Origin: a virus
Length of the DNA stretch: 35,596 nt
Direction: 5' to 3' (one strand)
Virus record (IMG/VR): IMGVR_UViG_3300033508_000294
Location: 1-35,596 of that record
Below are positions 2 to 1,167 of this stretch, piece by piece (within the stretch, counting starts at the first letter, position 1; the number at the start of each line of letters is the position of its first letter). The translations under genes were made by a program, and so were the position numbers. Below the pieces are notes generated by a model, which saw only the letters and a program-made list of their open reading frames with translations, did not search any database and was not told where the DNA came from.

Positions 2-400
2 ACCGATAGAAAATTTGCAGGCTCTGATACACTTGCAACTAGTTATGCAATTTCTTTTGCTGTTAAGAAATTAGCACCTTTCCACATGGTAATTTGTGGC
101 CGCCAGGCTATAGATGGAGATACAGCTCAAGTAGGTCCTCAAGTGGCTGAAAAATGCGAAATTAATCAAGTTACTTACGCAGAAGAAATTATTTCAGTAG
201 AAAACAACGAAGCCGTTATTAAACGCCGCTTAGAAAGAGGTATTGAAATCGTAAAAGCTCCATTCCCCGTATTAGTTACCGTTCATAGTTCTGCTCCAGA
301 ATGTAGATCTCGCAATTCTAAGTTATTGTTGAAATATAAACATGCTAGAACCATTACAGAACTTCAAGAAGAAACAAAATTATTCCAAAAATATTTATGA
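2..400 (+). CDS. etfB: electron transfer flavoprotein beta subunit, 3' part (5' end lies outside the window; possibly truncated at the 3' end)
   Basis: The frame is open from nt 2. Translation reads ...TDRKFAGSDTLATSYAISFAVKKLAPFHMVICGRQAIDGDTAQVGPQVAE..., matching the conserved EtfB core (FAGADTLATS ... CGKQAIDGDTAQVGPQ). The CRSRNSKLLLKYKHA tail resembles Bacteroidetes EtfB. GC content and codon usage (about 38% GC; ggc/cgc/cag codons) differ from the rest of the window. Only about 17 residues follow the KYKHA motif before the stop, fewer than in typical EtfB. Confidence 0.8.
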   Translation, partial: TDRKFAGSDTLATSYAISFAVKKLAPFHMVICGRQAIDGDTAQVGPQVAEKCEINQVTYAEEIISVENNEAVIKRRLERGIEIVKAPFPVLVTVHSSAPECRSRNSKLLLKYKHARTITELQEETKLFQKYL

Positions 401-1167
401 AAAACTTTAACCAATTTGTAAATGAGGGTATTAGAGATAAAATGTTACCTAAATCAGAAGATGAATTACAATCTGCTTATAATAATTTAATTAAAGATAT
501 AAATAATCCATTATCTACATATCCATATGGAATTAATAGGGAATTTCAAGAGATTGCCGATTTATTTAAACTAAATAAAAAAGATTTACATTTAATTACA
601 GAAGATAATGATAAATGGAATTTATTAGATGAATTATTTACAAAATATACAGAAAATATAGAGAATAAAATAATTGAAGTAAAAGAAACAGAAACAGAAT
701 ATGGTGGTGAATGGGTATGTTGGTCTGATAAAAAATTAGCATATTGGAATAGTAATGAAATAAATGATGTTAATGCATGGATATTCTATAAAAATGATTT
801 TGTAAATGAATCTATTAGAGATAAAATGTCACCTAAATCAGAAGAAGATATATTAAATTCTTTAAAAGGATTATCAACACATCAAAAATTAATGTTAGGT
901 TGTAAGAATGATAGTGTATTAGCAGTTAAATTAGTAATGGAAGAAGATGAACAAAAAAAGGATGAAGAAGATGAAAGTATCATACATATAGATGATGAAT
1001 GGCCACTTAGAAAAGCATGTAAGGAAGGTTCTCTTGAAGTTGTTAAATTTTTATTAGATAATGGTGCTGATGTCCATGCTTGTGATGATGATGCATTTTG
1101 GGTAGCAAGAGGAAATAGACCATTAATTAAATTATTAAATAGTTATAAGTATAAAAAAAAGAATTAA
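397..1167 (+). CDS. ankyrin-repeat protein with internally duplicated N-terminal module and CTS-like leader
   Basis: The C-terminal LRKACKEGSLEVVKFLLDNGADVHACDDDAFWVARGNRPLIKLL has the ankyrin-repeat consensus. The N-terminal MKNFNQFVNEGIRDKMLPKSEDEL is repeated at about residue 128 (KNDFVNESIRDKMSPKSEEDIL). The ATG overlaps the etfB stop (ATGA). Confidence 0.6.
   Translation: MKNFNQFVNEGIRDKMLPKSEDELQSAYNNLIKDINNPLSTYPYGINREFQEIADLFKLNKKDLHLITEDNDKWNLLDELFTKYTENIENKIIEVKETETEYGGEWVCWSDKKLAYWNSNEINDVNAWIFYKNDFVNESIRDKMSPKSEEDILNSLKGLSTHQKLMLGCKNDSVLAVKLVMEEDEQKKDEEDESIIHIDDEWPLRKACKEGSLEVVKFLLDNGADVHACDDDAFWVARGNRPLIKLLNSYKYKKKN

What the first reader, a model, noticed from the sequence alone, without database searches (positions are those of the whole stretch)
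397..1167. Ankyrin-repeat protein with internal module duplication and injection-type leader
The N-terminal ~125-aa module (FVNEGIRDKMLPKSEDEL...) is repeated (FVNESIRDKMSPKSEEDIL...) before a C-terminal ankyrin repeat. Ankyrin repeats are eukaryote-style interaction modules often used by symbionts and pathogens. Here the protein also carries the CTS-like leader, so it may be delivered with the DNA.
Basis: seen in the sequence. Interest (0 to 1): 0.5.

Follow-up and report, generated by a model that had tools for sequence, protein, structure and literature searches.

The report
Two-cassette phage protein with repeated junction peptide
This gene from an uncultured huge phage joins two unrelated small protein modules, one of them ankyrin, each preceded by the same short peptide; that peptide marks a large undescribed family of bead-on-a-string phage proteins and looks like a capsid-targeting and protease-cleavage signal, so the modules may be cut apart in the phage head and injected with the DNA.

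Summary
ORF 397-1167 is real: 256 aa, identical in two other assemblies. Its last ~100 aa form a small ankyrin domain, with one canonical repeat above the Pfam threshold and two degenerate caps; the model matches 3-repeat DARPins.

The claimed 125-aa module duplication is wrong. Only an 18-27-aa peptide, FVNE-[GS]-IRDKM-x-PKSE, is repeated (aa 7-24 and 135-152). The two module bodies are unrelated.

That peptide defines an undescribed family of at least 750 clusters at 50% identity. It comes from uncultured low-GC huge phages related to the 634-735-kb Mahaphages.
- Each protein has 1-13 copies, and each copy precedes a different ~110-aa module (about 70% ankyrin).
- The Glu before S/G is invariant (426/432, never Asp).
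- The segment is modelled as disordered.
- Cassettes are swapped at it between strains.

Residues 1-10 (MKNFNQFVNE) match T4's capsid-targeting sequence MKTYQEFIAE at the positions mapped for targeting (4, 7) and processing (8, 10).

Best reading: a two-module precursor is targeted to the prohead, cut after E10 and E138 by a Glu-specific prohead protease, and ejected with the DNA. This is unproven. No protease or head gene was recovered, and the modules are acidic, unlike T4 internal proteins.

Window bases 1-337 (an EtfB fragment) are a foreign or chimeric join.

The parts
397..1167 (+). Complete ORF of 256 aa (30.0 kDa, pI 4.8): a two-module precursor.
   Evidence: An identical product is encoded in L001 and L002.
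397..426 (+). N-terminal leader, aa 1-10 (MKNFNQFVNE), of the T4 CTS type. The predicted cut is after E10.
   Evidence: Compared with T4 IPII/IPIII MKTYQEFIAE. Family N-terminal copies have aromatics at P7/P4 and end in N-E. pLDDT is below 50 for aa 1-18.
415..468 (+). Junction peptide, copy 1: aa 7-24, FVNE|GIRDKMLPKSEDEL.
   Evidence: It matches the family profile.
454..801 (+). Module 1, an alpha/beta domain of unknown function (aa ~20-135). If cut, the mature form would be aa 11-138 (15.3 kDa, pI 4.5).
799..852 (+). Junction peptide, copy 2: aa 135-152, FVNE|SIRDKMSPKSEEDI. The predicted cut is after E138.
   Evidence: pLDDT is below 50 for aa 139-145. Homology with the syntenic relative L120 stops at nt 820, inside this peptide.
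865..1149 (+). Module 2, a small ankyrin-repeat domain (aa ~157-251). It has a degenerate N-cap hairpin, one canonical repeat and a C-cap. If cut, the mature form would be aa 139-256 (13.5 kDa, pI 5.4).
   Evidence: Pfam Ank_2 covers aa 165-228 at 26.1 bits, just under its 27.3 cut-off. AlphaFold2 pLDDT is 80-96. Foldseek hits are all DARPins or ankyrin proteins.
997..1095 (+). Canonical ankyrin repeat (aa 201-233, EWPLRKACKEGSLEVVKFLLDNGADVHACDDDA).
   Evidence: Pfam Ank 27.0 bits (cut-off 21.1), Ank_3 25.2 (22.3), Ank_4 25.8 (22.7).
338..400 (+). Last ~20 codons (...ELQEETKLFQKYL*) of the native upstream paralogue, a 336-aa leader-plus-ankyrin protein. Its TGA stop overlaps the ATG at 397.
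   Evidence: L001 and L002 are 99.4-99.5% identical to the window from nt 338 onward, and both carry the full upstream paralogue.
1..337 (+). Foreign EtfB fragment (GC 38% against 25% for the rest). It is not part of the feature: it is either a chimeric contig end or a recent acquisition.
   Evidence: Pfam ETF, E 3.8e-11. The segment is absent from L001 and L002.

Best explanation
The gene encodes a two-cassette precursor that belongs to a hypervariable, phage-specific effector family.

Anatomy:
- A 10-residue T4-CTS-type leader (MKNFNQFVNE).
- Then two unrelated small modules: a 128-aa alpha/beta domain and a 118-aa three-hairpin ankyrin domain.
- Each module is preceded by the same exposed junction peptide, [I/T/V/L]-N-E | [S/G]-[V/I]-R-D-x-M-x-P-K-S-E-E-[D/E]-I.

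Proposed mechanism (inferred):
1. The leader takes the precursor into the scaffolding core of the prohead.
2. A Glu-specific prohead protease of the T4 gp21 type cuts after E10 and E138.
3. The two free modules stay in the head and are ejected with the DNA. There the ankyrin module binds a host protein.
4. The same junction sequence also serves as a homology handle, through which cassettes are swapped and fused.

Shown here: the anatomy, the family, the invariant Glu, the predicted disorder and the cassette exchange.

Inferred only: targeting, cleavage, packaging and ejection.
For: 1. The leader matches the T4 IPII/IPIII CTS at all four positions that were mapped functionally in T4. The chance expectation is 1.3e-4.
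2. The tail module is T4-type: the sheath hits T4 gp18 and 785 mostly T4-like records, and the tube and an endonuclease VII gene lie next to it.
3. A profile of the junction peptide finds 750 clusters at E <= 1e-3, with up to 13 copies per protein.
4. Over 432 instances, P1 is Glu in 426 and Asp in 0, although E and D interchange freely at +11 and +12. P3 is I/T/V/L/Y/M and P1' is S or G. This fits gp21's L/I-x-E specificity, and in T4 an Asp at that position blocks processing.
5. N-terminal copies carry the extra aromatic pair and internal copies do not, while N-E is conserved equally in both. That is the pattern expected for one targeting signal per chain and one cleavage site per module.
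6. Both copies are modelled as disordred, with pLDDT below 50, and they lie between well-folded domains.
7. Selection acts on the protein: the P1' Ser uses both TCN (110) and AGY (52) codons.
8. Modules are about the size of T4 internal proteins (median spacing 130 aa). The same module types occur alone, first, last or internally.
9. The motif is absent from 185,579 bacterial and archaeal species genomes. It is present in IMG/VR and metagenome contigs, six of which also carry the sheath gene.
10. Compared with the syntenic relative L120, only the second cassette is replaced, and the left breakpoint lies inside the junction peptide.
Against: - No prohead protease, capsid, portal or scaffold gene of this lineage was recovered, so neither the enzyme nor its specificity is known.
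- There is no proteomic or expression evidence.
- A candidate promoter motif shared with the sheath and tube genes is not enriched upstream of family genes.
- The modules are acidic (pI 4.5 and 5.4; 58% of family modules are below 6.5). T4 IPI*, IPII* and IPIII* have pI 9.0-9.7.
- Conservation extends about 14 residues past the putative cut. That is more than T4 gp21 is known to require, which suggests an additional or different function.
- The neighbouring genes are not structural: a response regulator or hybrid kinase, an HD protein and a peptide deformylase.
- The leader is made of AT-rich codons, which a 25% GC genome without Shine-Dalgarno (SD) sequences might favour at gene starts for translational reasons.
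Confidence: 0.4

Rival explanations
1. The proteins are uncleaved multidomain cytoplasmic effectors. The junction peptide is a flexible linker plus a helix N-cap (T-P-K-S-E-E-D-I). It persists because it works as a universal connector and as a homology handle for cassette shuffling, or because a common partner binds it. There is no capsid targeting and no proteolysis.
For: - Cassette exchange happens exactly at the peptide, and there are long tandem arrays of such genes.
- The peptide is a disordered stretch followed by the first helix of each module.
- Conservation is strongest on the C-terminal side of the Glu.
- The modules are acidic and the neighbouring genes are non-structural.
Against: - A mere linker or recombination handle does not need an invariant Glu that is never Asp (426 versus 0 of 432), nor a small P1' and a hydrophobic P3.
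- Ser is encoded by two unrelated codon families, so selection is on the peptide rather than on DNA homology.
- This reading does not explain why only N-terminal copies keep the aromatic pair that matches the T4 CTS.
Confidence: 0.3
2. The protein is a true polyprotein, but it is cut in the infected cell by a protease other than the head-maturation enzyme, either phage-encoded or host. This releases many small effectors from one translation product, as in the polyproteins of RNA viruses. There is no packaging.
For: - The same site signature applies: invariant Glu at P1, S/G at P1', and disorder.
- E/Q|G/S sites are typical of 3C-like polyprotein proteases (from memory).
- A conserved 477-aa 'peptidase' (phrog_4191, E 2e-68) lies beside the sheath gene in the window, in L003 and in L120.
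Against: - That peptidase resembles the M28 exopeptidases only weakly.
- This reading leaves the CTS-like N-terminal leader unexplained.
- No 3C-like or V8-like protease was seen in about 750 kb of related loci, although the survey was incomplete.
Confidence: 0.15
3. Each module is made separately by internal translation initiation at the invariant Met of the peptide (R-D-K-M). The conserved codons upstream would act as a ribosome-binding region.
For: - The Met was present in every seed sequence of the profile.
- The Arg codon AGG is unusually frequent inside the motif: AGG 90 to AGA 98, against AGG 45 to AGA 297 in window genes.
- Some database gene calls start at this Met.
Against: - Genes of this phage have no Shine-Dalgarno sequences, only A/T-rich leaders.
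- Residues upstream of the Met (N, E, S/G, V/I, R, D) are conserved at the amino-acid level with synonymous variation.
- In-frame Met upstream of internal copies is not enriched: 25%, against about 28% expected.
- The gene calls that start at MTPKS could be truncated ORFs in which the caller took the first in-frame ATG; this was not checked.
Confidence: 0.05
4. One reading: an ankyrin protein built by tandem duplication of a ~125-aa N-terminal module.
For: Both halves begin with the same ~20-aa peptide.
Against: - Outside that peptide the halves show no similarity: score 26, against 28 +/- 5 for shuffles.
- The halves have different folds.
- They have different homologues. Module 1 matches P0001, P0002 and P0004; module 2 matches the ankyrin proteins P0005 and P0007.
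Confidence: 0.02

Closest known systems
Phage T4 internal proteins IPI, IPII and IPIII and their capsid-targeting sequence (CTS), processed by the prohead protease gp21
   Same: - A ~10-residue N-terminal propeptide of the form M-K-x-[Y/F]-x-[E/Q]-F-[I/V]-x-E, followed by a small residue.
- Small mature proteins of 76-183 aa with unrelated, hypervariable bodies that share only the leader.
- A myovirus with a T4-type tail.

   Different: - No homology in the mature parts.
- The modules here are acidic rather than basic.
- Several modules are strung into one ORF, each behind a further conserved ~16-residue peptide that T4 internal proteins lack.
- Neither packaging nor cleavage has been shown.
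Processed inner-body and ejection proteins of giant phages phiKZ, 201phi2-1 and SPN3US (protease gp175/gp245, cleavage after S/A/G-x-E or A-x-E)
   Same: - Giant myoviruses.
- Many head proteins are cut after Glu at short motifs, some at several sites.
- Paralogues have conserved N-termini (PMC5694885 and PMC9026906).
   Different: - In those phages the propeptides are long (more than 100 aa) and are discarded. Here every segment between sites is a folded module.
- The site context differs: [ITVL]-N-E|[SG]VRDKMTPKS.
- There is no sequence relationship.
Polyvalent proteins of phages and conjugative elements (Iyer, Burroughs, Anand, de Souza, Aravind 2017; PMC5512222)
   Same: - 2-15 disparate domains in one polypeptide.
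- Predicted to be injected with the invading DNA and sometimes processed proteolytically.
- GNAT and HD domains, and possibly a ParB-like domain, also occur in this family.
   Different: - Polyvalent proteins are defined by MuF, portal, Alt, DarB and zincin-like metallopeptidase (MPTase) anchors and are mostly enzymatic.
- This family is about 70% ankyrin and unknown small modules.
- No MPTase or MuF was detected in the nine members scanned.
- It has a uniform junction peptide and a CTS-like leader. The paper mentions neither ankyrin nor linkers.
Pre-toxin junction motifs of polymorphic toxins, such as the VENN motif of CdiA (from memory)
   Same: A short conserved peptide marks the boundary at which variable C-terminal cassettes are exchanged by recombination. 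This works like the swap seen between the window and L120.
   Different: - Those are secreted bacterial toxins with one junction per protein and cognate immunity genes.
- Here there are up to 13 junctions, the genes are on phages, and no immunity genes were seen.
Ankyrin-repeat proteins of Wolbachia phage WO and other phages
   Same: These are phage-encoded ankyrin domains. They are the only GenBank phage hits to a 13-module family member.
   Different: The similarity is confined to the ankyrin repeats (24-33% identity). Neither the leader nor the junction peptide is present in any GenBank phage record.

Membership tests
Ankyrin repeat (Pfam clan Ank) | At least one 33-residue repeat scoring above the curated HMM threshold | tested here: met
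   PF00023 27.0 bits (cut-off 21.1), PF13606 25.2 (22.3) and PF13637 25.8 (22.7), at aa 201-233.
Ankyrin repeat (Pfam clan Ank) | A stack of helix-turn-helix hairpins, i.e. several tandem repeats forming one domain | tested here: met
   The AlphaFold2 model has six helices between aa 161 and 251, with pLDDT 80-96. Foldseek's top 50 hits are all DARPin or ankyrin chains, about 99 aligned columns, TM 0.76 to 2xen; E-values are only about 4e-3. Only one repeat is canonical; the flanking two are degenerate caps.
T4-type CTS-bearing internal (ejected) head proteins | An N-terminal ~10-residue propeptide with the CTS pattern: an aromatic at 4, F at 7, an aliphatic at 8 and Glu at 10 | tested here: met
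   MKNFNQFVNE against MKTYQEFIAE. The roles of these positions are from PMC9026906. The chance expectation is 1.3e-4.
T4-type CTS-bearing internal (ejected) head proteins | A gp21-type (Glu-specific) prohead protease encoded by the same phage | tested here: inconclusive
   T4 gp20-24, gp67 and gp68 gave no phmmer hit in the window or in about 750 kb of related loci. A PHROG survey of 137 neighbouring ORFs listed no head genes among the 25 families it displays. The genomes are only sampled in fragments.
T4-type CTS-bearing internal (ejected) head proteins | Cleavage after the leader Glu and presence of the mature protein in virions | not testable with these tools
   This needs virion proteomics or a protease assay. 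The sequence fits: V-N-E|G and V-N-E|S, with family P1 Glu in 426/432 and Asp in 0.
T4-type CTS-bearing internal (ejected) head proteins | Small basic proteins that lie embedded in the packaged DNA | tested here: not met
   Module sizes fit (128 and 118 aa), but the pI values are 4.5 and 5.4, against 9.0-9.7 for IPI*, IPII* and IPIII*.
Polyvalent proteins (Iyer et al. 2017) | Several domains of disparate biochemical activity in one polypeptide of a phage or conjugative element | tested here: inconclusive
   The target has two unrelated modules, neither with a recognisable catalytic domain. Relatives combine ankyrin with HD, GNAT and many unknown modules.
Polyvalent proteins (Iyer et al. 2017) | Anchor or processing domains (MuF, portal, Alt-like ART, DarB-type methylase-helicase, MPTase), or linkage to packaging genes | tested here: not met
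   Pfam finds only Ank, GNAT and HD in the target and in nine family members. The neighbours are tail genes and non-structural genes.
   Score 26, against 28 +/- 5 for shuffles, after removing the shared peptide.

The most novel reading that the evidence does not exclude
Huge Bacteroidota-type phages may encode their injected effector arsenal as CTS-led polyproteins. These would be strings of up to 13 interchangeable cassettes, mostly ankyrin binders. Each cassette is preceded by one universal peptide that would be both the prohead-protease cut site and the recombination handle for cassette shuffling. A single targeting signal would then load many different host-directed proteins into the capsid, and the repertoire could be reshuffled quickly.
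Probability: 0.3. Interest if true: 0.8.

Novelty: new variant of a known kind. Interest (0 to 1): 0.6.

Why it matters
What huge phages do with their large complement of unknown genes, and how they take over their hosts, is largely unknown.

If the junction peptide is a head-protease site behind a CTS-type leader, three things follow:
- It gives a sequence rule for predicting which proteins of uncultured huge phages are packaged and injected.
- It reveals a polyprotein strategy not described for tailed phages.
- It offers a natural multi-cargo packaging tag, comparable to the T4 CTS already used for protein delivery.

Even if the proteins are not cleaved, the family is a clear example of combinatorial cassette shuffling around a fixed junction. 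It has at least 750 clusters and is absent from cellular genomes and from GenBank phages.

Tried and rejected
- **125-aa duplication.** Rejected by self-alignment with shuffles.
- **A DNA-level element.** Rejected because the P1' Ser uses both TCN and AGY codons and third positions vary.
- **Internal starts or Shine-Dalgarno sequences.** The phage has no SD sequences, and Met is not enriched upstream of internal copies. The high share of AGG codons inside the motif stays unexplained.
- **Head genes or the protease of this lineage.** None of these searches found any:
  - T4 gp13-24 by phmmer against all loci.
  - 50 kb of LR756501 around its sheath gene, which gave only TerL.
  - A PHROG batch of 137 neighbouring ORFs.
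  - Neighbourhoods of P0001, P0003, P0004 and P0018.
- **Late-promoter evidence.** TTT[AT]ATATATAA lies upstream of the sheath and tube genes and of two leader-bearing genes. It is not enriched upstream of family genes (7% against 10.6%).
- **GenBank phages.** No homologue carries the peptide.
- **Literature.** No paper holds the string RDKMTPKS, and the huge-phage paper (PMC7162821) does not mention ankyrin.
- **Origin of the EtfB fragment.** A back-translated 15-aa pattern found no GTDB genome.
- **Asn-lyase or intein-like self-cleavage at the conserved Asn.** Considered and set aside, because Asn (77%) is less conserved than the Glu (99%).
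Full report
**The ORF and its setting.** An ATG-to-TAA ORF occupies 397-1167 on the + strand and encodes 256 aa. The identical protein is encoded on two other assemblies: ENA k141_300020 (L001) and JGI Ga0316611_1025047 (L002). The window appears to be a whole 35,596-bp contig, because that is the longest contig on record for this protein. It is about 25% GC.

The contig comes from a myovirus. It carries a 1143-aa tail sheath (phrog_34521, E 2e-78; T4 gp18 by phmmer, E 4e-12), a tail tube and an endonuclease VII gene. The best sheath matches, at 45-49% identity, are the 634-735-kb uncultured phages LR756501, LR745206, LR756502 and LR756504. Lak phages and Flavobacterium phage MaF61 follow at 31-33%. 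Those four giants belong to the Mahaphage clade and have predicted Bacteroidetes hosts (PMC7162821). Window genes have no Shine-Dalgarno sequences, only A/T-rich upstream regions, which is consistent with such a host.

**The window start is not native.** L001 and L002 are 99.4-99.5% identical to the window from nt 338 onward. Upstream, they carry a 336-aa ankyrin paralogue and then a 184-aa paralogue. Both begin M..FNQ[FY][IV]NEG[IV]RDKMTPKS and lie downstream of a response-regulator gene. In the window, nt 1-337 are instead an EtfB fragment with 38% GC. The ORF at 86-400 is therefore a chimera of EtfB and the last 20 codons of the upstream paralogue. The target gene is natively the last member of a tandem array.

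**Check of the observation.** The peptide FVNE[GS]IRDKMxPKSE does occur twice, at aa 7-24 and 135-152. The alignment score is 80 against 32 +/- 5.7 for shuffles. With that peptide removed, the two halves are no more alike than shuffled sequence (26 against 28 +/- 5). The '125-aa module duplication' is therefore not there.

AlphaFold2 (mean pLDDT 78) gives two different folded domains: alpha/beta at aa ~20-135 and all-helical at aa ~148-251. Each is preceded by a segment with pLDDT below 50 (aa 1-18 and 139-145). These segments correspond to the leader plus the start of copy 1, and to the start of copy 2.

The ankyrin call holds. Pfam Ank scores 27.0 bits against a cut-off of 21.1 at aa 203-231. 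The helical domain superposes on 3-repeat DARPins. It is a minimal domain, with one canonical repeat between two degenerate caps.

**The repeated peptide is a family hallmark.** Homologues of the target turned out to be mosaics:
- Module 1 recurs as the first module of P0001.
- It recurs as the last module of P0002 and P0004, behind an HD domain.
- It recurs inside P0017 and P0026.
- Module 2 resembles the ankyrin proteins P0005 and P0007.

In all of them the same peptide sits at the N-terminus and at every junction between unrelated modules.

A 35-column profile of the peptide was searched against 1.84 billion representative proteins. It found 750 clusters at E <= 1e-3, 214 at <= 1e-10 and 34 at <= 1e-30, with up to 13 copies in one 1591-aa protein.

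The 163 proteins in hand contain 432 instances:
- The consensus is [I/T/V/L/Y/M]-N-E-[S/G]-[V/I]-R-D-[K/L/M]-M-T-P-K-S-[E/K]-E-[D/E]-I.
- 115 copies follow a 9-13-residue N-terminal leader (MKxFxxF(I/V)NE or MKYLKSYNE), and 317 are internal.
- The median spacing is 130 aa.

About 70% of the modules cluster with ankyrin-type modules. The rest fall into about 76 small clusters, most without a Pfam match; GNAT and HD are the exceptions.

**Where the family lives.** A back-translated DNA pattern for the peptide gave:
- 0 hits in 185,579 bacterial and archaeal species genomes.
- 13 stretches on 9 IMG/VR contigs.
- 99 stretches in JGI metagenome contigs.

The median GC of the loci is 26%. Six loci also hold the T4-like sheath gene. 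No GenBank phage record, including the 634-735-kb genomes, has a homologue with the peptide. Neither the peptide string nor an ankyrin/huge-phage link was found in the searchable literature.

The genes form arrays. One 122-kb contig ends in more than 10 kb of them. A 1591-aa and a 1499-aa member are both recorded on a contig of 11,755 bp.

**Evidence on mechanism.**
- (a) Leader. T4 IPII and IPIII begin MKTYQEFIAE|A, and IPI begins MKTFKEF...ITE|A. The first 10 residues of IPIII are the capsid-targeting sequence. Residues 4 and 7 matter for targeting and 8 and 10 for processing, gp21 cuts after L/I-x-E, and Asp at position 10 blocks processing (PMC9026906; the sequence is also given in PMC8442874). 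The target's MKNFNQFVNE|G has F4, F7, V8 and E10. The chance expectation of the full pattern among the 54 window genes is 1.3e-4.
- (b) Site signature. P1 is Glu in 426 of 432 instances and never Asp, although Glu and Asp alternate freely two helical turns later (278/77 and 186/191). P1' is Ser or Gly. P3 is hydrophobic or beta-branched.
- (c) Bipartite logic. N-terminal copies have aromatics at P7/P6 (55%/32%) and P4/P3 (46%/42%). Internal copies do not (4-21%). N-E is conserved equally in both. This is what one targeting signal per chain and one cut site per module would predict.
- (d) Accessibility. Both copies are modelled as disordered linkers. The conserved T-P-K-S-E-E-D-I begins the first helix of each module.
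- (e) Selection is on the protein. The P1' Ser is encoded by TCN (110) and by AGY (52).
- (f) Cassette exchange. In the syntenic contig L120, homology to the window runs over nt 396-820 and resumes at nt 1189. The ankyrin cassette is replaced by an unrelated module containing DGTHR, and the left breakpoint is inside the junction peptide. P0002 and P0004 still carry a whole fossil gene start (IMKSFDEFMKNVNE|GVRELM) at their internal junction.

**What argues for caution.**
- I could not recover a prohead protease, capsid, portal or scaffold gene for this lineage. The enzyme is therefore hypothetical.
- There is no expression-timing evidence. A promoter-like TTT[AT]ATATATAA lies upstream of the sheath and tube genes and two leader-bearing genes, but it is not enriched upstream of family genes.
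- The modules are acidic (pI 4.5 and 5.4), whereas T4 internal proteins have pI 9.0-9.7.
- Conservation on the primed side of the putative cut is much longer than T4 gp21 is known to need. The peptide probably has a second role, such as a helix cap, a docking element or a recombination handle.
- The unusually high share of AGG Arg codons in the motif is unexplained.

**Comparison with known systems.** Functionally, the closest are:
- T4 internal proteins with their CTS.
- The Glu-cleaved ejection and inner-body proteins of phiKZ and SPN3US (PMC5694885).
- The 'polyvalent proteins' of Iyer et al. 2017, which have 2-15 domains and are predicted to be injected with the DNA (PMC5512222).

The family is not a member of any of these by homology:
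- There is no similarity to the mature T4 internal proteins.
- There are no MuF, MPTase or portal anchors.
- The junction peptide and the ankyrin-dominated cassette repertoire are not described in that paper.

The cassette swap at a fixed peptide also works like the VENN-type pre-toxin junctions of polymorphic toxins (from memory).

**Verdict.**
- The finding leads to an undescribed, widespread family of bead-on-a-string proteins in huge phages.
- I rate it a new variant of a known kind (CTS-led, protease-processed injected proteins, or polyvalent proteins), with interest 0.6.
- I give about 0.4 to the full targeting-cleavage-ejection mechanism, and about 0.55 to proteolytic separation of the modules by any protease.

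Noticed in passing
window 1-400: The first 337 bases are an EtfB (electron-transfer flavoprotein beta) fragment with 38% GC. It is fused in frame to the last 20 codons of a phage ankyrin gene. Two other assemblies have the phage paralogue there instead, so this contig end is a chimeric join or a recent foreign insertion.
   Followed up: partly
window 25820-27676: A dUTPase is split in two. ORF 25820-26422 holds dUTPase profile positions 21-64. ORF 27368-27676 starts with an intein C-terminal splicing block (...LIHN|C) followed by dUTPase positions 67-129. A 295-aa endonuclease-like ORF (26475-27362) lies between them. This looks like a split intein, or an intein broken up by a free-standing nuclease gene.
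   Followed up: partly
window 1583-4063 (-): An 826-aa protein has major-vault-protein domains (Vault_3 E 2.9e-10, MVP_shoulder E 1.6e-26, weak SPFH/Band_7). It sits next to the tail tube and sheath genes and is conserved at the same place in a relative (827 aa in L120). This is an unusual thing to find in a phage.
   Followed up: no
window 1172-1522 (-): A 116-aa ORF has a lipoprotein-type signal (MKKFFLITLIFMMGC). It converges on the target gene with a 4-nt gap and is conserved in L120.
   Followed up: no
window 11324-11938, 16356-16899, 17023-18057, 28212-29144: Six further genes of unknown function (74-344 aa) start with the short leader alone (MKIKKFNES, MAHIKKFNES, MKNIKTYKQHILNES, MKKYLDFINES, MKTFNEFLLE), without the RDKMxPKS peptide. 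F(x)NE in the first 16 residues occurs in 7 of 57 ORFs, against 3.6% of internal 16-residue windows (post-hoc pattern). The 28212-29144 gene (MKTFNEFLLE) is added by eye and is not one of those 7.
   Followed up: partly
window 15151-15957 (-): A 268-aa ORF corresponds only to the C-terminal part of an NAD-dependent DNA ligase (Zn ribbon, HhH, BRCT; phrog_3869 positions 391-654). The adenylation domain must be encoded elsewhere or be missing.
   Followed up: no
window 23483-25489 (-): Five tandem ORFs of 105-137 aa lie head to tail here. At least three share a similar N-terminal region (..KE.K.IYL.LL...L..PEKW..), so they form a local paralogue array of unknown function.
   Followed up: no
window-wide; e.g. 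5591-5602, 9168-9179, 16975-17018: Genes lack Shine-Dalgarno sequences and have A/T-rich leaders such as AAAAATAATAAATAAAATT-ATG. The exact motif TTTAATATATAA occurs four times, always in intergenic DNA upstream of a gene (tube, sheath, and twice before 17023), so it is a candidate promoter element.
   Followed up: partly
motif codons in window 415-468 and 799-852 and in about 210 instances in loci L001-L122: Inside the junction peptide, the Arg codon AGG is almost as common as AGA (90 to 98), although window genes use AGA 6.6 times more often. G/C-ending codons for N, E and K are also enriched there. This is unexplained.
   Followed up: no
L003 2719-4212; L001 1-303; L120 9045-9446: The gene array is preceded by a response-regulator receiver gene. 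In L003 it is a 497-aa hybrid HisKA-HATPase-receiver protein. A phage-encoded two-component sensor is therefore apparently co-transcribed with the ankyrin cassette genes.
   Followed up: no
P0020, P0022, P0041, P0057, P0083 (family members): Some copies of the junction peptide carry an insertion (NE-S-V-R-D-TNGVGL(L/P)..-KMTPKSEEDI). It splits the peptide into two sub-elements, xNE|SVRD and KMTPKSEEDI.
   Followed up: no
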